NCBI RefSeq assembly: GCF_003334815.1
Contig: NZ_QOWO01000013.1
Reading direction: 5' to 3' (one strand)
DNA length: 64,000 bases
Origin: Escherichia coli
Lineage (GTDB): Bacteria; Pseudomonadota; Gammaproteobacteria; Enterobacterales; Enterobacteriaceae
Shown here: piece after piece, positions 48,417 through 59,330 of the stretch
Layout of the letters: every line of letters starts with the position of its first letter
How positions within the stretch are numbered: the stretch's first letter is position 1
The notes under the pieces: generated by a model
The model's input: the letters and a program-made list of their open reading frames with translations, nothing else
Told to the model about the DNA's origin: nothing
Databases searched by the model: none
Position numbers and translations under genes: made by a program

Positions 48417-48547
48417 CCCCTCACCCCGGCCCTCTCCCCGGAGGGGCGAGGGAGAAAAAAAGAGTGCGGTGTCGTTTCAGAGTGAGGGAGTACATACAGC
48501 GCCGAACGGTCCCCTCTCCCTGAGGGAGAGGGTTAGGGTGAGGGGGC
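48417..48547. repeat. pair of inverted GC-rich hairpin repeats (CCCTCACCC-N3-CCCTCTCC-N4-GGAGAGGG type)
   Basis: copy at 48417-48453 and reverse-complement copy at 48509-48547, between lldD stop and trmL start. Confidence 0.6.
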
Positions 48548-50519: not shown

Positions 50520-52174
50520 TAAGGAATCATCCACGTTAAGACATAAGCCTGAAGCGTGGTGATCACGCCCACTATACAGGTGAAGATCAGGCTGTGTTTG
50601 ACAGTAAAGCGGAACAAATCAGACTCTTTGCCCACCAGGCCTACCGCCGCACAGGCGATAGCGATAGATTGCGGGGAGATCATCTTACCGGTGACGCCAC
50701 CGGTGGTATTGGCGGCAACCAGCAACAGATCAGAGACGCCAATTTGTTGTGCTGCGGTGGCTTGCAGCGCGGCGAACAGGGCGTTAGATGAGGTATCCGA
50801 CCCGGTCAGGAATACCCCCAGCCAGCCGAGGAACGGCGAGAAGAAGGTGAATGCATGACCGGTGTGCGCCAGTGCCAGCGCCAGTGTTGATGACAGTCCG
50901 GAATAGTTCGAAATAAAGGCGAATGCCAGCACCATACCGATGGAGTAGATGGGCAGAGCCAGTTCTTTCAGCGTGCTGCCGAAGGTGCTGATAGCGTCAG
51001 ACGGTTTCATCTTCAGCCAGACAATCGAGAGCAGTGCAGCAAACAGAATGGCGGTGCCGGTGGCAGAGAACCAGTCAAACTTAAACACGGCGGCATAGGC
51101 TGTAGCCTCGCTGACCACTGGCGGCATACGGGCAACCAGTTTATCGAGGTACGGCACCGGAATATTGATCACCCACTCATACAGCGCGCCACCCGATGCG
51201 AACAGGGCTTTAAACGGCGGGATACTCCACAGTGTTACGGTAGCTGTCAGGAACAGGAACGGTGTCCAGGCACGTAACACCTGACCCGCAGTGTAACCGG
51301 TGTGGGCCAGCGTCATATCAACCTGTGACGCCCCCAAATCACCAAAACGGAATACACGCACTGGCTGCCAGCGTTTGAGGAACAGCGTCAGGCAGAGCAG
51401 TGATACCAGCGAAGAGATAATGTCCGGCAGCTCCGGCCCAATGAAGTTAGAGCTAAGGTACTGAGCGATGGCAAACGAGCCGCCCGCAACCACGACCGCA
51501 GGCCACGTCTCTTTGATACCGCGCCAGCCGTCCATAATCGCCATGATCCAGAACAGCACGATAATGGTCATAAACGGTAGCTGCCGCCCCACCATCTGAC
51601 CAATCTCAAAGCTGTCGATACCTGTTACCTGTCCGGCAACCAGGATTGGAATGCCCATCGCACCAAATGCCACTGGCGCGGTGTTAACAATCAGGCACAG
51701 CCCGGCGGCGTACAGCGGTTTAAAACCCAGGCCGACCAGCAATGCGGCGGTAATTGCTACCGGTGCGCCAAAGCCTGCGGCTCCTTCAAGGAACGCGCCG
51801 AAACAGAAACCGACGATCAGCATTTGCAGACGCTGGTCAGGGGTTATCGAAAGAATAGACGAGCGAATGATGTCAAACTGCCCGGTTTTCACCGAGATCT
51901 TATAGACGAACACCGCTGCAATAATGATCCACGCGATGGGCCACAACCCGTAGAAGAAACCATAAACCACCGAGGCCAGCGCGTTAGCGACCGGCATTTT
52001 ATAGAACAGCAAAGCCACGGCAAGGGCGATTGCCACCGTCCACGAGGCGGCGACGTATCCTTTCAGTTTGAGCTTAATCAGCGCAAAGAAGAAAAACAGG
52101 ATGGGAAGCGATGCTATCAGACTGGAAAGCCAGATATTCCCGGCGGGATCGTAGTTTTGTTGCCAGAGATTCAT
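50519..52174 (-). CDS. lldP: L-lactate permease
   Basis: ORF track 50519..52201; conserved start [13 protein letters not shown] at ATG 52174 (551 aa). Confidence 0.92.
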
Positions 52175-52475
52175 TGCAGGTCTCCTGGAGTCCACGCACA
52201 TCGTGTAATGAGTCTGTTGCTCATCTCCTTGTCACACGTTGTGTAAAAGTGGCACTGCCAATTGTGTTGTGTAGGGATAATGACAATGAATGGTTAACTA
52301 AATGTTATGTATTGGCAACATTGATGTGAGTTTTAATTGGGAAATTGTGAACCAGAGGTCAGATAAGCGAAGAATTGGTAGGGCCAATTCTTGTGGGGGG
52401 AGATGTCTGGTAAAGAAAAGGGCAATCCTCATCAGAGAATTGCCCTTAGGTTGTTGATCCAGAGCGCCTTATCTT

Positions 52476-52509
52476 GCCGGATGCGGCGTGAACACCTTAC
52501 TCGGCCTAT
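52476..52509. repeat. REP element
   Basis: GCCGGATGCGGCGTGAACACCTTACTCGGCCTAT close to the REP consensus; downstream of yibL. Confidence 0.6.
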
Positions 52510-52545
52510 AGGAATGTGCAGAATCACCCTGTAGATACTGTGTTC

Positions 52546-52908
52546 TTAAAACGCGGTCTTTGAAAACCCAGTCATCTCCTGCAGGCCCATTTCGCGGCCC
52601 AGTGCGGTCATTGGGTGCACAACGACCAGTCCGCGAACACTTTTCTTCAGCTTGCCCATATCAGCCTGCTCTTTTTTGGTAATTGCGCGCTGGAATGGCA
52701 TCTTCATCAGCTTCTGTGCTTCTTTACTCAGTTTTTGGCTATGAACTTCACGCAGGCGAGCAATTTCTGCTTCCAGCGTGGCTTTCTCTTTTTCCAGCTC
52801 GGCATATTTGTCTGCGGCTTCAACCAGCGAAAGATCGGCCTGCTGGTGGCGGATGGCGTCCAGGCGATCGCTGAGACGTTTGATTTCGTTTTTTTCGACT
52901 TCTTTCAT
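52546..52908 (-). CDS. yibL: uncharacterised protein YibL
   Basis: ORF track 120 aa. Confidence 0.82.
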
Positions 52909-53192
52909 GTGATGGCTTCTGATAAAGATAAATTTATAGCCCCTAGTATGCGCGACCAGGTGCTTTGTTCACAACTAATGACATTGTAATAGTTCTGTAA
53001 CGTAATCATTAACATGCTCAAAAACTACGCAATTCGTTGATTAATTAAGAAATCTATAGAAAAAAGATAATAAACAGCAGCGGATGATTATTGAGGATTC
53101 AGCACGTTTTCCTTAATGTCATCTTTACCGGGAACCTAAACTAAAATTGGCGGCCGCGCATTCCCGGCGCGGGGTAATACGGAGATATCATC

Positions 53193-53402
53193 ATGGGCAA
53201 ATTAGGTGAAAACGTTCCGCTTCTTATCGATAAAGCCGTAGATTTCATGGCATCAAGCCAGGCGTTCCGGGAGTATCTGAAAAAACTTCCTCCCCGTAAC
53301 GCGATTCCGTCCGGAATACCCGATGAAAGCGTGCCGTTATATCTACAACGTCTGGAGTATTATCGTCGGCTTTATCGGCCGAAGCAGGTAGAGGGGCAGT
53401 AA
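53193..53402 (+). CDS. yibT: small protein YibT
   Basis: ORF track 69 aa; GGAG 9 nt upstream of ATG. Confidence 0.7.
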
Positions 53403-53413
53403 GCAGACGTTGC

Positions 53414-54001
53414 TTACTTTTGAAAGGCTTTTTTTAAGCTGATTTTGGAAATCAGCTCAGTCAGTGAAAGGACCATTGTTGATCGCACAGCCTGTTGATA
53501 GCGCTGAATTTGCATTGCATACAAACTGGAGTCTGCTGGTTCAAACTGTGGCGGCGGTGGTAACGCCGCCACGCAGTGCAGTTCACCAAAGGGTCCAAGG
53601 ATTTCGTCGTCGGTAAAGGCGTACTCGTTGCCGTCGTGATTTAGCTCTTCACGCAATGCCATCAGCAGTTCCGCATCTTCGTATTCCTGGCGGTTAATGA
53701 CGCCCAACCCGTAAATGAGTTTTAAACGCACAGAAAGATCGCCCAGCGGACCATCGCCGTCGAGTAACGGTTCTACAGCATACTTCACCGCGTAATCGTC
53801 TTTGCGGAATACCTGAAGCACCAGAAGATTTACCGCCTCGGTCAGGAGCTCGACGGCGGTGATCAGAAAGCTTCGCACGGTTTTGCCAGCATTCAGACGC
53901 TCAAGCACACGGTTTTCAAAGGCCTGGGTTTGTTCCATTGTTGCCTGCATATCTGACAATCTGTTATTCGGGCGCAGGGTGTCCTGCGCCTGGTCCACCA
54001 T
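53414..54001 (-). CDS. mtlR: mannitol operon repressor MtlR
   Basis: ORF track 195 aa; start overlaps mtlD stop (TAATG). Confidence 0.9.
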   Translation of the reverse strand: MVDQAQDTLRPNNRLSDMQATMEQTQAFENRVLERLNAGKTVRSFLITAVELLTEAVNLLVLQVFRKDDYAVKYAVEPLLDGDGPLGDLSVRLKLIYGLGVINRQEYEDAELLMALREELNHDGNEYAFTDDEILGPFGELHCVAALPPPPQFEPADSSLYAMQIQRYQQAVRSTMVLSLTELISKISLKKAFQK

Positions 54002-55149
54002 TATTGCATTGCTTTATAAGCGGTTACCGCCTCGGATACAACCTCGCTGTTGGCATCAAGACCGGAAATCTGTGCCAGCGCCGCCTGCGGACCTTTGTCA
54101 GCGATCAGTGCTGCCAGTTCCTGAGCCTGCGGATCATCTTCACTGCGGAAGTGCATTGCAGCGGCAATACCTTCAATCAGGTTTTTATGTGGCAGACCAT
54201 ATTCCAGCGTACCGAGCAGTGGCTTGATCAGACGGTCGCCAGCACTCAGTTTACGCAGTGGCTGACGGCCTACGCGCTCTACATCATCTTTCAGATACGG
54301 GTTCTCAAAACGGCCGAGAATTTTCTGGATGTACGCCGCATGCTTGTCAGCGTCAAAGCCGTAGCGCTTGATCAATACTGCACCACTTTCTTCCATCGCA
54401 CCTTTTACCACCGCGCGGATTTTCTCGTCGAGAATCGCGTCACGAATGGTCTGATGACCGGCCAGTTTTCCGAGGTACGCGGTTATAGCATGACCCGTGT
54501 TCAGGGTGAAGAGTTTACGTTCGACAAATGCCATCAGGTTGTCGGTTAACTCCATGCCTGGGATGTTCGGCAGTGCGCCTTTGAACTGCGTTTTATCGAC
54601 AATCCATTCGCTGAAGGTTTCTACCGTCACTTCCAGCGGATCGTTAGTTGCCGAAGCCGAAGGCGGTACGATGCGGTCAACGGCGGAATCGACAAAGCCA
54701 ACGTGTTCTTCTACCCACGCTTTGGCGTCTTCCGGCAGGGCGTTCATCACATGGCCTTTCAGCTGCGTGGTACCGCGTACCATGTTTTCACAGGCGATGA
54801 TGTTCAGCGGGGATTCATTACCTTGTTCTTTACGTTTCACCAGCCCTTTGGCGATTGCCGGAGCAATACGTTCCAGCACAACCGGGCCAACGGCGGTAGT
54901 GACTAAATCAACCTGAGCAATCAGATCAACGACATCATCACCAATGCTGCTGACAGCATTGACGCCGGAAACGGTATCTACCTGCTCGGTTTCACCAACC
55001 ACATGTACCTGATAGCTATGACGGGCATTCAGGGCATCAAGTACCACCTGATTGACATCGGCAAACGTCAGTTGGATACCCGCGTCTGCCAGCAGTTTAC
55101 CGATAAAGCCACGACCGATATTACCTGCGCCAAAATGTAATGCTTTCAT
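54001..55149 (-). CDS. mtlD: mannitol-1-phosphate 5-dehydrogenase
   Basis: ORF track 54001..55467; conserved Rossmann start [17 protein letters not shown] at ATG 55149 (382 aa); the upstream extension in the track runs through REP repeats. Confidence 0.94.
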
Positions 55150-55180
55150 AGTATTAACCTTCATCAATGTTTTTACCCGA

Positions 55181-55375
55181 GAGGGCTGGGGTGAGGCTTT
55201 TCCCTCACCCAAACCCTCTCCGTGAGGAGAGGGGCAGCGCCGGATGCGGCGTAAGCGCCTTATCCGGCCTACAAGAACGTGCAAATTCAACAAATTGTGA
55301 TGCATCCTGTAGGCCTGATAAGCGTAGCGCATCAGGCAATTAACCCCACCTTCTCCATGTGGAGAGGGTGGGATT
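55181..55375. repeat. BIME-like cluster: CCCTC/GAGGG hairpins flanking two inverted REP elements
   Basis: hairpin about 55201-55234, REP 55241-55273, inverted REP 55305-55337, hairpin about 55346-55372; between mtlA stop and mtlD start. Confidence 0.7.
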
Positions 55376-55378
55376 GGA

Positions 55379-57292
55379 TTACTTACGACCTGCCAGCAGT
55401 TCCAGCACTTCATCCACGCTGGTGGTGTGTGCCAGACGCTCGATGACGGACTCATCATCCAGTGCATTGGTCAGGCTGGTGATAACCTGAATGTGCTCGT
55501 TGTTACGGGCAGCAATACCAATCACCAGACGGGCAATGTCATCTTCTTCTTCACCGAAGCGCACGCCTTCCGGGTACTGGCAGAACACGACGCCCGTTTT
55601 CAGTACGCGATCTTTCGCTTCAACCGTACCGTGTGGCACCGCGATAGACTCACCCAGATAAGTCGGGGTCAGTTTTTCACGATCCAGCATCGCCTGAACG
55701 TATTCCGGCTCAACGTAACCGCCTTTCACCAGCTGCTCGCCAGCAAAACGAATCGCTTCTTCTTTGGTTGCCGCTTTGCGACCGAGGAAGATGTTCTCCG
55801 CGCCTAGCTTGAACAGGTTAGCACTGGAATCGTCAAAGCTGTCTTTCAGGCTGTCTTTTACTTTCTCTTCGTTTGCCGTGTGGCGTTGGGCAGCAACCAG
55901 ACGTTCGGTCAGGCTGGTGTACAGGCCGCTGTCGAGGAAGTTGGTCAGCGAAATATGCTGTGCCTGCGGAACCTGGCGCATAGCGCGTTCGGTCAGGTCA
56001 CGGTGAGTGATGACGAGGTCCACATCTGGCGGCAGGTTGTTGATCGCGCTGTTAGTAACAGAAATCTGCGACAGACCTGCATCCTGAATTTTCTTACGCA
56101 GAACGCCTGCGCCCATCGCACTGGAACCCATACCGGCGTCACAGGCAACGATGATTTTACGTACGTGGCTCAGGTCGTTAGTCACATCGCCAGCAGACAG
56201 CGGAGATGCGCCTTTAGACTCAGCTTTCATGTCCTGCATACGACGAGTTGCTGCTTCAATATCATCTTCTTCTTTCACTTTGCTGGTTTTCAGCAAAATA
56301 GCAGAGACAACGAAGGAGACAGCCATCGCCGCACACACACCCGCGATGTTAGCGAAGTAAGCACCTTTTGGTGTCATCGCCAGTACAGCAAGGATAGAAC
56401 CCGGAGATGCCGGAGAAACCAGACCACCGCCCAGGATAGTCAGCGTGAACACGCCAGTCATACCGCCGAGGATGACTGCGAGGATCAGACGCGGATTCAT
56501 CAGCACATACGGGAAGTAGATTTCGTGGATACCCCCCAGGAAGTGGATGATTGCCGCACCGCCCGCAGACTGTTTAGCGCTACCACGACCAAAGAACATG
56601 TACGCCAGCAGCACGCCCATACCTGGACCTGGGTTAGCTTCAATCAGGAAGAAGATTGATTTACCCAGTTCATGGGACTGCTGAATACCCAGCGGCGAGA
56701 AGATACCGTGGTTAATGGCGTTGTTGAGGAACAGGATTTTCGCCGGTTCAACAAAGATAGACGCCAGCGGCAGCATGTCATGGACAACCATGAAGTTAAC
56801 GCCCGCAGCCAGCATTTTGGACAGGGCTTCAACAATCGGGCCAATGCCGAGGAATGCCAGAATAGCGAGGATCATCCCGATGATGCCTGCGGAGAAGTTA
56901 TTCACCAGCATCTCAAAACCGGATTTGATCTTACCGTCTACCCAGCGGTCGAAGTGCTTAATGCACCAGCCGCCCAGCGGACCTGCAATCATAGAACCGA
57001 GGAACATCGGCATGTCTGCGCCGACGATAACGCCCATGGTGGTGATGGCACCGACTACGCCGCCACGTTCGCCGCCTACCAGCTTACCACCGGTATAACC
57101 GATCAGCAGCGGCAGGAGATAAGTGATCATCGGCCCGACCAGCTTCGCCAGCGTCTCGTTCGGTAACCACCCTGTTGGAATAAATAACGCGGTGATGATA
57201 CCCCACGCGATAAACGCGCCGATATTTGGCATCACCATGTTGCTGAGGAAACGACCAAAGCTTTGCACTTTGATCTTAATATCGGATGACAT
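55379..57292 (-). CDS. mtlA: PTS mannitol-specific EIICBA
   Basis: ORF track 637 aa [27 protein letters not shown]... Confidence 0.95.
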
Positions 57293-57435
57293 AAAAACAC
57301 CCCTTCTTATGTTTGCTGTCGCGCAGGCTGGAAGCCCGAGGTTTTTTGTTAATGTGGCGGCAGAGGTAGCCGGACCTTGTAGATACTGCGAAATCTGGCA
57401 CTGAATCGGTTAACTGTCCAGTCGACGGCCTTTTG

Positions 57436-57612
57436 TGTGATATCAATCACATAAATATAGGGGGTAGAGAGGTAATTGACGTGACGTTCATCACAAAACG
57501 CTTGTGTAAAAAAGCAACAAGGCGGCGATTTTCGCTAAAAATGGCATTTAAATGTGAGTAGTGTCACATTTTTGTTTTGATGGTTTGTTGAATCTTTGTG
57601 ATCTGAATCACA
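57436..57612. promoter_or_regulatory. mtl operon control region with four CRP-type sites
   Basis: TGTGA-N6-TCACA at 57436-57451, 57553-57568 and 57597-57612 (perfect half-sites) and cGTGA-N6-TCACA at 57480-57495; 144-320 bp upstream of mtlA start. Confidence 0.65.
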
Positions 57613-57828
57613 AGATATTTTCTTACGGCGTTCACCTGATGTGATCTACAGCATGTTATGCCTTCGTCATACAATCGTTATGTAACTAAGCAACTCATCA
57701 CCTCTAAAAATTATTCTTTGGTGTTATGGCGAGAATCGCGAACCCGGATTATTGTCAAAATATCAGCCTGACTCCCTTCTGGCTGCCAGCCCAAAAACAA
57801 CACTGATAAACGTGAATCCGAGGCAGAT

Positions 57829-58191
57829 ATGTTTCTAAACTATTTCGCGTTGGGAGTGCTGATCTTCGTCTTTCTGGTGATTTTTTATGGAATCATCGCG
57901 ATACATGACATCCCTTATCTGATTGCCAAAAAGCGCAACCATCCCCATGCCGACGCTATTCATACGGCGGGCTGGGTGAGCCTGTTTACTCTGCATGTTA
58001 TCTGGCCGTTTCTGTGGATCTGGGCGACGCTCTATCAACCGGAGCGTGGCTGGGGTATGCAGTCACATGTTGCGTCGCAGGAGAAAGCGACTGACCCGGA
58101 AATCGCCGCACTTTCTGACCGAATTTCCCGGCTGGAGCATCAACTCGCCGCCGAGAAAAAGACTGACTATTCCACGTTCCCGGAGATCTAA
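57829..58191 (+). CDS. yibI: small inner-membrane protein YibI
   Basis: ORF track 120 aa; two hydrophobic segments then a charged C-terminal tail. Confidence 0.82.
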
Positions 58192-58193
58192 TT

Positions 58194-59330
58194 ATGGATC
58201 TATTGATTGTTTTAACTTACGTGGCGCTGGCGTGGGCGGTCTTTAAAATCTTCCGCATTCCGGTAAATCAGTGGACGCTGGCGACGGCGGCGCTGGGAGG
58301 CGTGTTTCTGGTGAGTGGTTTGATTTTGTTGATGAACTACAACCACCCTTACACTTTTACCGCGCAAAAGGCAGTGATAGCGATCCCTATCACGCCACAG
58401 GTGACGGGAATTGTTACTGAAGTCACTGACAAGAATAATCAGCTTATTCAAAAGGGCGAGGTGCTTTTTAAGCTCGACCCGGTTCGTTACCAGGCGCGAG
58501 TTGACAGACTTCAGGCTGACCTGATGACGGCGACGCATAATATAAAGACGCTGCGTGCGCAGCTCACTGAAGCGCAGGCCAACACCACCCAGGTTTCAGC
58601 GGAGCGCGACCGTCTGTTTAAAAATTATCAACGTTACTTGAAAGGCAGCCAGGCGGCGGTGAATCCGTTCTCGGAACGTGACATCGACGATGCGCGGCAA
58701 AATTTCCTCGCGCAGGATGCGCTGGTGAAAGGCTCGGTGGCGGAGCAGGCGCAGATCCAGAGCCAGCTCGACAGTATGGTTAACGGCGAGCAATCGCAGA
58801 TTGTGAGCTTAAGAGCGCAACTTACTGAAGCAAAATATAACCTTGAGCAGACTGTCATTCGCGCGCCGAGCAATGGCTACGTTACTCAGGTACTGATCCG
58901 CCCAGGTACATACGCAGCTGCCTTGCCGCTGCGTCCGGTGATGGTCTTCATCCCCGAGCAAAAACGGCAAATTGTCGCCCAATTTCGGCAAAACTCGCTG
59001 TTACGTCTGAAACCCGGCGATGATGCGGAAGTGGTGTTTAACGCGCTACCTGGGCAGGTGTTTCACGGCAAACTGACTAGTATTTTACCTGTCGTGCCAG
59101 GCGGTTCTTATCAGGCGCAGGGGGTATTGCAATCATTAACGGTCGTGCCCGGCACGGACGGTGTGCTGGGAACCATTGAACTGGACCCTAACGATGATAT
59201 CGATGCCTTACCCGACGGCATCTACGCCCAGGTGGCGGTTTACTCCGACCATTTCAGCCATGTTTCGGTGATGCGGAAAGTGCTGCTAAGAATGACCAGC
59301 TGGATGCATTATCTTTATTTGGATCATTGA
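58194..59330 (+). CDS. yibH: HlyD-family membrane fusion protein YibH
   Basis: ORF track 378 aa; N-terminal TM, long coiled coil, beta-rich C-terminus; 2 nt after yibI. Confidence 0.85.

What the first reader, a model, noticed from the sequence alone, without database searches (positions are those of the whole stretch)
55150..55378. Composite BIME inside the mtlA-mtlD operon junction
The 229-bp spacer between mtlA and mtlD is filled with two inverted REP elements bracketed by GC-rich hairpins. Intra-operon elements of this kind can stabilise the upstream message and attenuate read-through, which would set the mtlA:mtlD expression ratio. The six-frame ORF that extends mtlD to 488 aa is simply translation across these repeats.
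Basis: partly seen in the sequence, partly recalled or inferred. Interest (0 to 1): 0.25.

Follow-up and report, generated by a model that had tools for sequence, protein, structure and literature searches.

The report
REP–BoxC repeats between mtlA and mtlD
The gap between two genes of the E. coli mannitol operon holds a well-known kind of repeated palindromic DNA (a REP pair) that differs between strains, next to an older GC-rich hairpin that is kept in place across the whole enterobacterial family.

Summary
Window 55150-55378 is the 229-nt mtlA-mtlD spacer, and this stretch is identical to E. coli K-12 MG1655. On the mRNA (minus) strand it reads: hairpin A, REP z1, a 36-nt L linker with an IHF-like site, inverted REP y, then a BoxC-like palindrome and the mtlD ribosome-binding site. 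The RNA folds at -115.6 kcal/mol (z = -7.4).

The REP pair is an ordinary BIME-1. The flanking hairpins are not part of it: they are BoxC/PIT/TMECO-type repeats.

The BIME is dispensable and unstable. Of 5,426 complete E. coli genomes, 872 carry a REP-free 94-nt spacer (an exact 135-nt deletion), 3,305 carry the K-12-type linker, and 1,042 carry a different linker, mostly followed by one to three extra ~100-nt z2-y units. No sampled genus outside Escherichia has this BIME.

The BoxC-like module and the stretch up to the ATG are conserved in 66 of 80 species. Stems are 92% identical, against 54% at neighbouring four-fold sites.

The 488-aa ORF is an artefact. The proposed stabiliser/attenuator role is a reasonable inference from the element class but is untested here. 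If a conserved function exists, it fits the BoxC-like hairpin better than the BIME. Verdict: already known, low interest.

The parts
55379..57292 (-). mtlA (PTS mannitol transporter IICBA, 637 aa); stop codon at 55379-55381
   Evidence: ORF list. NCBIfam PRK15083 at 1324 bits over residues 1-637. Annotated as mtlA in K-12 and in all matching genomes.
55150..55378 (-). 229-nt mtlA-mtlD intercistronic spacer (the finding)
   Evidence: identical to K-12 3,774,195-3,774,423. RNA fold -115.6 kcal/mol, z = -7.4.
55342..55375 (-). Hairpin A: 16-bp imperfect stem starting 4 nt after the mtlA stop. It looks like a partial duplicate of the BoxC C1:G1 hairpin (CCCTCTCC..GGAGAAGG).
   Evidence: Inverted repeat I4 and direct repeat D1 (21 nt, 86%, spacing 135). 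Stability -22.4 kcal/mol. Present with compensating changes in E. albertii L008. Removed in the 94-nt allele.
55309..55337 (+). REP of z1 type (GTAGGCCTGATAAGCGTAGCGCATCAGGC as read on the window + strand). First REP on the mRNA.
   Evidence: -13.2 kcal/mol. Exact 33-nt matches elsewhere in E. coli genomes (row H40). The z1 assignment rests on my recall of the Gilson/Bachellier consensus.
55273..55308 (.). 36-nt L-type linker between the two REP heads, with an IHF-consensus-like site ATTCAACAAATTG at 55285-55297 (+ strand)
   Evidence: A 54-nt query centred on the linker finds a median of 10 places per genome, and a place covering at least 80% of the query in all 5,426 genomes. The IHF consensus WATCAANNNNTTR matches with 1 mismatch.
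55239..55272 (-). REP of y type (GTAGGCCGGATAAGGCGCTTACGCCGCATCCGGC on the mRNA strand), inverted relative to z1
   Evidence: I5; exact GCCGGATGCGGCG; -19.5 kcal/mol. Sub-threshold Rfam naRNA4 hit at 55213-55269, 38 bits against a gathering score of 59.5.
55179..55233 (-). BoxC/TMECO-like palindromic module. In mRNA order: C1 55233-55226, G1 55221-55214, G2 55210-55203, loop 55202-55197, C2 55196-55188, C1' 55185-55179. Two near-isoenergetic folds are possible: C1:G1 plus G2:C2, or one long G1G2:C2C1' hairpin.
   Evidence: Inverted repeats I1 and I7. Relaxed BoxC pattern hit. Fold energies -34.6 against -32.0 kcal/mol. Conserved in 66 of 80 species. 91.5% of cells paired, and 7 pairs with changes on both sides against 2.3 in shuffles. 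Stems 92% identical against 54% at four-fold sites. C1:G1 stem of at least 8 bp in 63 of 66.
55150..55178 (-). Conserved tail GGGTAAAAACATTGATGAAGGTTAATACT, with the Shine-Dalgarno GAAGG at 55158-55162, 8 nt upstream of the mtlD ATG
   Evidence: 85% mean identity to E. coli across 65 orthologues. AAGG is nearly invariant in alignment A1.
54001..55149 (-). mtlD (mannitol-1-phosphate 5-dehydrogenase, 382 aa). The listed ORF 54001-55467 (488 aa) is this gene plus a spurious in-frame extension across the spacer into mtlA.
   Evidence: (profile 1-382 aligned to residues 107-488).

Best explanation
The spacer is a mosaic of two unrelated families of enterobacterial repeats sitting inside the mtlADR transcript.

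(1) An old BoxC/PIT/TMECO-type GC-rich palindrome lies directly upstream of the mtlD ribosome-binding site. It is fixed at this position across Enterobacteriaceae.

(2) In the Escherichia lineage, a partial duplicate of that palindrome's first hairpin (hairpin A) and a BIME-1 (REP z1, L linker with an IHF-like site, inverted REP y) lie between the mtlA stop codon and the palindrome.

The REP part behaves as mobile or recombinogenic DNA. It has been lost by a 135-nt deletion between the two CCCTCTCC repeats. In other E. coli lineages it has been remodelled and amplified into arrays with one to three extra z2-y (BIME-2) units.

Inferred, not shown: on the polycistronic mRNA, the row of stable stem-loops most likely acts as a barrier to 3'-to-5' exonucleases, protecting the mtlA segment. 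It may also lower transcription or translation downstream, or at the mtlA stop codon. The BoxC-like hairpin plus Shine-Dalgarno region would carry any conserved role. The BIME would be at most a strain-specific modulator.
For: - Identity and anatomy.
- The L linker is a repeated family: (median 10 places per genome).
- The BIME-1 and BIME-2 definitions are matched (PMC3333891).
- BoxC similarity: consensus and the K-12 list in PMC4666352. The relaxed pattern hits here and at the two listed TMECOs in the window. The strict consensus is met by 24 of 80 orthologous spacers.
- Population variation: 872 genomes with the 94-nt junction, 3,305 with the K-12-type linker, 1,042 with the other linker. 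Sampled spacer lengths were 94, 217, 228/229, 318/319, 419 and 520 nt.
- The deletion is exactly the 135-nt spacing of direct repeat D1.
- E. albertii also has hairpin A plus a z1-y pair, so the 94-nt form is derived.
- Conservation of the BoxC-like module and tail.
- Other genera carry different inserts at the mtlA-proximal end: a single REP-like palindrome, other hairpins, or ERIC.
- General REP functions.
Against: - No expression data for mtl were found. The E. coli 3'-end maps I could query list no 3' end in mtlA or the spacer, but the operon is not induced in those media.
- The spacer holds no hairpin-plus-U-tract terminator.
- Sense and antisense strands fold equally well (p = 0.17), so nothing singles out RNA rather than DNA as the selected level.
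- BoxC stems may be kept alike by concerted evolution with other genomic copies rather than by a local function.
- PMC4666352 reports that an earlier study found no promoter or terminator activity for PIT/BoxC elements.
- The z1/y typing and the statement that REPs in this spacer were described in the 1980s rest on my memory. The original papers are not held.
Confidence: 0.8

Rival explanations
1. One reading: the BIME itself is the selected regulator. It stabilises the mtlA message and attenuates read-through, and so sets the mtlA:mtlD (and mtlR) ratio.
For: REP hairpins are documented as exonuclease barriers and attenuators (reviewed in PMC12306157 and PMC3333891). The z1-L-y unit folds at -45.4 kcal/mol. 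It lies inside an operon whose other junction (mtlD-mtlR) has no spacer at all.
Against: The BIME is absent from 872 of 5,426 E. coli genomes, including O157:H7. It is expanded to 4-8 REPs in others. It is absent from Citrobacter, Salmonella, Klebsiella, Enterobacter and the other sampled genera. There is no terminator signature. A required ratio-setting device would not be expected to vary this freely.
Confidence: 0.2
2. The REP part is selfish or neutral DNA with no measurable effect on mtl expression. It is tolerated here because the spacer already existed.
For: There is presence/absence and copy-number polymorphism within the species. The mtlA-proximal end of the spacer accepts unrelated inserts in different genera: REP-like palindromes, ERIC, and other hairpins. 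Variable tandem BIME numbers at a locus are a known property.
Against: Stable stem-loops in an mRNA usually have some effect on decay. Hairpin A keeps its pairing between E. coli and E. albertii through changes in both arms.
Confidence: 0.3
3. The elements act at the DNA level. IHF would bind the L linker, gyrase or Pol I would bind the REPs, or the BoxC-like element would form a triplex or cruciform. The role would be as a topological or nucleoid-organising site, or as a recombination hot spot, rather than as RNA structure.
For: There is an IHF-like site with one mismatch in the L linker. IHF, Pol I and gyrase binding are reported for REP/BIME. TMECO forms an intrastrand triplex in vitro, and TMECO loci are unusually variable. 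Here the variable region directly abuts the BoxC-like element. There is no sense/antisense folding asymmetry.
Against: In vivo footprinting did not support triplex formation. The window copy misses the strict triplex consensus. The strongly conserved tail up to the ATG points to an mRNA or translation constraint.
Confidence: 0.15
4. The stop-proximal hairpin lowers MtlA synthesis by stalling terminating ribosomes, as reported for REPs lying fewer than 16 nt from a stop codon.
For: Hairpin A (-22.4 kcal/mol) starts 4 nt after the mtlA UAA. In 54 of 80 species a perfect GC-rich hairpin starts within 15 nt of the mtlA stop. The rule is cited in PMC12306157.
Against: Hairpin A is not a REP, and the first REP starts about 41 nt after the stop. 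The hairpin scan was crude. I could not read the primary paper. No mtl data exist.
Confidence: 0.15

Closest known systems
[quoted passage not shown]
   Same: One z1 and one y REP, heads facing a 36-nt linker. The linker belongs to a repeated family and has an IHF-like site. It is a single unit, not a tandem array, as in the definition quoted.
   Different: IHF binding was not tested. It lies inside an operon rather than at the 3' end of a transcription unit. It is flanked on both sides by BoxC-like hairpins.
BIME-2 and atypical BIME tandem arrays (z2 + y units; copy number variable between strains)
   Same: The 319-, 419- and 520-nt alleles of this same spacer in other E. coli carry 1, 2 or 3 extra ~100-nt z2-y units after a z1-y pair. 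This is the strain-to-strain copy-number variation described.
   Different: The window (K-12) allele has no z2 REP and no tandem unit.
BoxC / PIT / TMECO intrastrand-triplex repeats (Holder et al. 2015, PMC4666352)
   Same: The block order CCCTCTCC-N4-GGAGAGGG-TTT-GGGTGAGGG matches. It is intergenic. It sits next to a hypervariable stretch, as reported for TMECO loci. Orthologues in 24 of 80 species meet the strict consensus.
   Different: The window copy has 8-nt instead of 9-nt first blocks and is not among the 23 K-12 TMECOs. It is followed after only 6 nt by its own complement (C2, C1'), giving a long hairpin. Unlike what that paper reports for TMECO loci in general, this copy is positionally stable across a family.
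malE-malF-type intercistronic REP stabilisers and BIME-associated attenuation (Newbury/Higgins 1987 and Espeli 2001; cited from memory and through)
   Same: Stable REP stem-loops lie between two cistrons of a sugar-uptake operon, with the upstream gene encoding the transport component.
   Different: There is no experimental evidence for mtl. Here the REPs are dispensable in nature.
naRNA4 / REP325 (Rfam RF02564)
   Same: Shares the REP sequence: a 38-bit match at 55213-55269.
   Different: The match is below the gathering score of 59.5 bits, so it is not a member.

Membership tests
REP (palindromic unit) | 20-40-nt imperfect palindrome with a GTAG/CTAC head, extragenic, in many copies per genome | tested here: met
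   Two units, at 55239-55272 and 55309-55337, each with a GTAG head and a stem-loop. They lie between two CDSs. The query hits a median of 17 places per genome under megablast.
BIME-1 (RIP/RIB) | One y and one z1 REP in inverse orientation, present as a single unit | tested here: met
   A CCGGAT-type (y) and a short CCTGAT-type (z1) REP are inverted, and only one unit is present. The type assignment uses consensus sequences recalled from memory and the definition.
BIME-1 (RIP/RIB) | Long, well-conserved L linker | tested here: met
   The linker is 36 nt. A linker-centred 54-nt query finds a median of 10 places per genome, and a place covering at least 80% of the query in all 5,426 genomes, including genomes that lack the K-12-type mtl spacer.
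BIME-1 (RIP/RIB) | IHF binding site in L | tested here: inconclusive
   ATTCAACAAATTG matches WATCAANNNNTTR with one mismatch. Binding cannot be tested with these tools.
BIME-2 | z2 + y REPs with short linkers, in tandem copies | tested here: not met
   The window allele has neither a z2 REP nor a tandem unit. The feature is met by the 319-, 419- and 520-nt alleles of other strains.
BoxC / TMECO | Strict consensus CCCTCNCCC N3-6 GGGNGAGGG N3 GGGNGAGGG | tested here: not met
   The window copy reads CCCTCTCC-TCAC-GGAGAGGG-TTT-GGGTGAGGG and fails the strict pattern. It is not in the K-12 list. A relaxed pattern hits it, and 24 of 80 orthologues meet the strict pattern. I therefore call it BoxC-like, or a degenerate copy.
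BoxC / TMECO | Forms an intrastrand triplex | not testable with these tools
   This needs CD/NMR or footprinting. The published in vivo footprint for another copy was negative.
Rho-independent terminator or attenuator | GC-rich hairpin immediately followed by a U tract on the transcribed strand | tested here: not met
   The scan found no terminator-like site inside 55150-55378 on either strand. The hairpins are followed by GGGTAAAAAC or by further hairpins.
Rfam naRNA4 (RF02564) | Score at or above the gathering threshold of 59.5 bits | tested here: not met
   38 bits.
REP-type mRNA stabiliser | Longer half-life of the upstream segment that depends on the stem-loops; decay intermediates ending at the REP | not testable with these tools
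   No mtl transcript data were found.

The most novel reading that the evidence does not exclude
The BoxC-type palindrome, about 25 nt upstream of the mtlD start codon, would be a dedicated cis-acting element of the mannitol operon rather than a passive repeat copy. It has been kept at the same place since the radiation of Enterobacteriaceae. Its stems are 92% identical against 54% at neighbouring four-fold sites, with compensating changes and two competing folds. Erwiniaceae carry an analogous GC-rich hairpin at the same position. It might act as an RNA processing or stability determinant, or as a switch that sets MtlD/MtlR output. That would give a BoxC/PIT element its first assigned function.
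Probability: 0.2. Interest if true: 0.45.

Novelty: already known. Interest (0 to 1): 0.18.

Why it matters
The finding itself adds little. REPs in the mtl intercistronic region of K-12 are textbook-era knowledge, and REP/BIME functions are well reviewed.

The follow-up has modest value in two ways.

- The locus is a natural allelic series, with 0, 2, 4, 6 or 8 REPs in otherwise near-identical operons across thousands of sequenced strains. The long-assumed effect of BIMEs on intra-operon expression could be measured in it directly.
- BoxC-type elements have no known function and are reported as instability hot spots. This copy has been positionally stable across a bacterial family, right next to a stretch that is hypervariable.

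MtlD and MtlR dosage is physiologically relevant, because mtlD loss makes cells mannitol-sensitive (PMC11784389).

Tried and rejected
- **Rfam at E <= 1 over 52000-59000:** only sub-threshold REP-derived naRNA4 and STnc380 hits, so no known RNA family.
- **Promoter and terminator scans:** nothing in the spacer, and overall counts were at or below the shuffle expectation. An internal mtlD promoter or an intrinsic attenuator is therefore unsupported.
- **Short REP motif with 2 mismatches:** 14 hits against 6.7 expected. This is too loose to be useful; only the exact hits (52476, 55239) are REPs.
- **Sense versus antisense folding of the conserved module, to infer an RNA-level function:** no asymmetry (p = 0.17).
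- **Small ORFs inside the spacer (55167-55343 +, 55205-55339 -) and the 488-aa ORF:** rejected as coding, because the spacer varies by indels, some of which shift the frame, and the MtlD profile starts at residue 107.
- **Literature:** no open-access paper links the mannitol operon with REPs. Two mtl papers were opened and say nothing on the spacer. The original papers (Figge 1994, Boccard and Prentki 1993, Liang 2015) are not held. 3'-end maps (Adams 2021) have no entry for mtlA or the spacer. A Term-seq search was irrelevant.
- **Holder 2015 supplements:** they do not list the mtl locus.
- **Perfect-stem hairpin finder for stop-codon proximity:** crude. It misses hairpin A because of that stem's single mismatch.

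Full report
**What is there.** The three genes lie on the minus strand: mtlA 55379-57292, mtlD 54001-55149 and mtlR 53414-54001. NCBIfam confirms all three: PTS mannitol IICBA at 1324 bits, the MtlD equivalog at 878 bits, and the MtlR family at 256 bits. The spacer is exactly 55150-55378, 229 nt. It is identical to E. coli K-12 MG1655 3,774,195-3,774,423.

**Anatomy on the mRNA strand (5' to 3').**
- The mtlA UAA is followed by 3 nt.
- Hairpin A (55375-55342) has a 16-bp stem with one mismatch, -22.4 kcal/mol.
- REP z1 spans 55337-55309.
- A 36-nt linker (55308-55273) contains ATTCAACAAATTG, one mismatch from the IHF consensus.
- An inverted REP y spans 55272-55239.
- A GC-rich module follows, built of five blocks: C1 CCCTCTCC, G1 GGAGAGGG, G2 GGGTGAGG, a 6-nt loop, C2 CCTCACCCC and C1' CCCTCTC (55233-55179).
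- It ends with GGGTAAAAACATTGATGAAGGTTAATACT-AUG, with the Shine-Dalgarno GAAGG 8 nt before the start codon.

The whole spacer folds at -115.6 kcal/mol, against -76.5 +/- 5.3 for dinucleotide shuffles (z = -7.4). The module can fold in two ways of similar energy: two hairpins (C1:G1 and G2:C2, -32.0) or one long hairpin (G1G2:C2C1', -34.6).

**What the pieces are.** The REP pair fits the published definition of BIME-1: y plus z1, a single unit, and a long conserved L linker that often carries an IHF site (PMC3333891). A query centred on the linker finds a median of 10 places per E. coli genome, and a place covering at least 80% of the query in all 5,426 genomes. The linker is therefore itself a repeated family. 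Assigning the two REPs to the y and z1 types uses consensus sequences I recall, not a tool.

The bracketing hairpins are not BIME parts. Their block order matches BoxC/PIT/TMECO elements, whose consensus is CCCTCNCCC N3-6 GGGNGAGGG N3 GGGNGAGGG (PMC4666352). The window copy is degenerate, with 8-nt instead of 9-nt first blocks. It fails the strict pattern and is not among the 23 K-12 TMECOs. A relaxed pattern finds it together with the two listed TMECOs that also lie in this window, 3 hits against 0.00 expected. Hairpin A is a partial direct duplicate of the C1:G1 hairpin (D1: 21 nt, 86%, spacing 135).

**Variation within E. coli.** Nearly all of the 5,426 complete genomes have the junction (5,402 carry both flanks), but the spacer comes in discrete alleles.
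- *A 94-nt form with no REP at all* (for example O157:H7). It equals the K-12 form minus exactly the 135 nt between the two CCCTCTCC repeats. Its junction is present in 872 genomes.
- *The K-12-type linker*, in 3,305 genomes. This count includes a 228-nt variant at 80-90% identity.
- *A different linker*, in 1,042 genomes. It is mostly followed by one to three extra ~100-nt z2-y units, that is, BIME-2 units. This gives spacers of 217, 318/319, 419 and 520 nt.

An evenly spaced sample of 59 genomes gave 229 nt x33, 228 x4, 94 x8, 318/319 x12, 419 x1 and 520 x1. This is the strain-to-strain BIME copy-number variation already described for E. coli.

**Other genera.** A scan of one genome per species returned 80 mtlD loci, and I measured each mtlA-mtlD spacer. 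E. albertii has hairpin A plus a z1-y pair. The REP-bearing arrangement therefore predates E. coli, and the 94-nt allele is a secondary deletion.

No genus outside Escherichia has this BIME. Citrobacter and Salmonella carry a single REP-like palindrome at the mtlA end. Klebsiella carries another hairpin. Two Citrobacter species and one unnamed enterobacterium carry an ERIC element there; the ERIC primers match with 1-2 mismatches.

By contrast, the module C1-G1-G2-loop-C2-C1' and the tail up to the ATG are present at the same place in 66 of the 80 species. These span Escherichia, Citrobacter, Salmonella, Klebsiella, Enterobacter, Kosakonia, Cedecea, Buttiauxella, Mangrovibacter and others. Further measurements on the module:
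- Loop length and sequence vary, while the stems do not.
- Mean identity to E. coli is 92% in the stems and 85% in the tail, against 54% at four-fold degenerate sites in 250 flanking codons.
- For the long hairpin, 91.5% of cells pair, against 36-58% when partners are slid. Seven pairs show changes on both sides, against 2.3 in column shuffles (0 of 500 shuffles reach this). Related sequences can inflate such numbers.
- The C1:G1 hairpin is at least 8 bp in 63 of 66.
- 24 orthologues meet the strict TMECO consensus.

Twelve of the remaining 14 loci (Pantoea, Mixta and three with other labels) have a different long GC-rich hairpin at the same position, and the other two have shorter, different GC-rich hairpins.

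**How it probably works.**
*Shown here:* the sequence, its repeat-family relations, its predicted folding, its polymorphism, and the deep conservation of the mtlD-proximal module.
*Inferred:* any effect on expression.

Established knowledge is that REP stem-loops in mRNA block 3'-to-5' exonucleases and can attenuate transcription. REPs closer than 16 nt to a stop codon can also lower translation of the upstream gene (as summarised in PMC3333891 and PMC12306157). From this, the most likely effect of the K-12 spacer is protection of the mtlA segment and some reduction of mtlD-mtlR output.

The BIME cannot be an obligatory ratio-setting device, because nature dispenses with it or multiplies it freely. 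If a conserved function resides in this spacer, the BoxC-like hairpin and the ribosome-binding tail are the candidates.

Several points count against even that.
- The spacer holds no terminator signature.
- There is no sense/antisense folding asymmetry.
- An earlier study, as reported in PMC4666352, found no promoter or terminator activity for PIT/BoxC elements.
- BoxC stems may be homogenised against other copies rather than selected locally.
- The only 3'-end maps I could query do not cover induced mtl expression.

**The 488-aa ORF.** The MtlD profile (382 positions) aligns to residues 107-488. The in-frame stretch upstream of the true ATG ranges from 5 to 106 codons among spacer alleles.

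**Novelty and verdict.** The finding is a correct description of a known element at a known place. To my recollection, REPs in this intercistronic region were noted when the operon was first sequenced, but I could not retrieve that paper. What the follow-up adds is threefold: a sharper parts list (BIME-1 plus BoxC-like elements, not one composite BIME); a natural allelic series of 0-8 REPs at one operon junction; and the family-wide positional conservation of the BoxC-like module. That conservation is mildly unexpected, given that BoxC loci are reported as instability hot spots. Interest is low for the finding as stated. The BoxC-module reading is a modest lead.

Noticed in passing
window 48419-48452 (-) and 48512-48545 (+): A divergent pair of strict BoxC/TMECO repeats about 60 nt apart. 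They correspond to TMECO nos. 18 and 17 of Holder et al. (K-12 3,781,028-3,781,156).
   Followed up: partly
window 52473-52509: A single, somewhat degenerate y-type REP (TGCCGGATGCGGCGTGAACACCTTACTCGGCCTAT), downstream of yibL by K-12 coordinates. Rfam gives a sub-threshold naRNA4 hit there (27 bits against 59.5).
   Followed up: partly
window 52348-52456 (+): Sub-threshold Rfam match to the enterobacterial sRNA STnc380 (36.4 bits against a gathering score of 60, full model length), next to the REP above.
   Followed up: no
L013, L015 (Citrobacter werkmanii, C. youngae) and L052 (Enterobacteriaceae RIT691): mtlA-mtlD spacer positions ~50-93 of 220-229 nt: An ERIC/IRU element (both ERIC primer sites present with 1-2 mismatches) is inserted at the mtlA-proximal end of the spacer, upstream of the conserved BoxC-like module. 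The same few bases after the mtlA stop accept REP-like palindromes, BIMEs, ERIC and other hairpins in different lineages.
   Followed up: partly
L071, L073, L074, L076, L077, L079-L083, L085, L086 (mostly Pantoea): spacers of 91-99 nt; L087 (Mixta), 67 nt: Instead of the BoxC-like module, the 12 loci with 91-99-nt spacers (mostly Pantoea) have a long GC-rich hairpin (GGGGCGGGCAAGCCCGTCCC...GGGGCGGATTTGCCCGCCC), itself built of self-complementary halves. It is followed by a T-rich stretch (TTTCGTCATTT), so it resembles a partial terminator at the same place before mtlD. Mixta (L087) has only a shorter hairpin, GGGGCGGGCATGCTCGCCC.
   Followed up: no
window ~54083 (+ strand; K-12 3,775,490 minus strand): The supplementary tables of Adams et al. 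2021 list an RNA 3' end antisense to mtlD at this position. Its origin was not examined.
   Followed up: no
window 54001: mtlD and mtlR overlap by one base (tight coupling). This contrasts with the 229-nt structured gap between mtlA and mtlD in the same operon.
   Followed up: no
E. coli genome collection: 20 of 5,426 complete genomes give no match to the mtlA-3'/mtlD-5' flanks, and a few match only one flank (for example NZ_CP100978.1, mtlD side only). This suggests occasional disruption or loss of the junction. About 200 genomes match none of the three junction or linker probes and may carry further spacer alleles.
   Followed up: no
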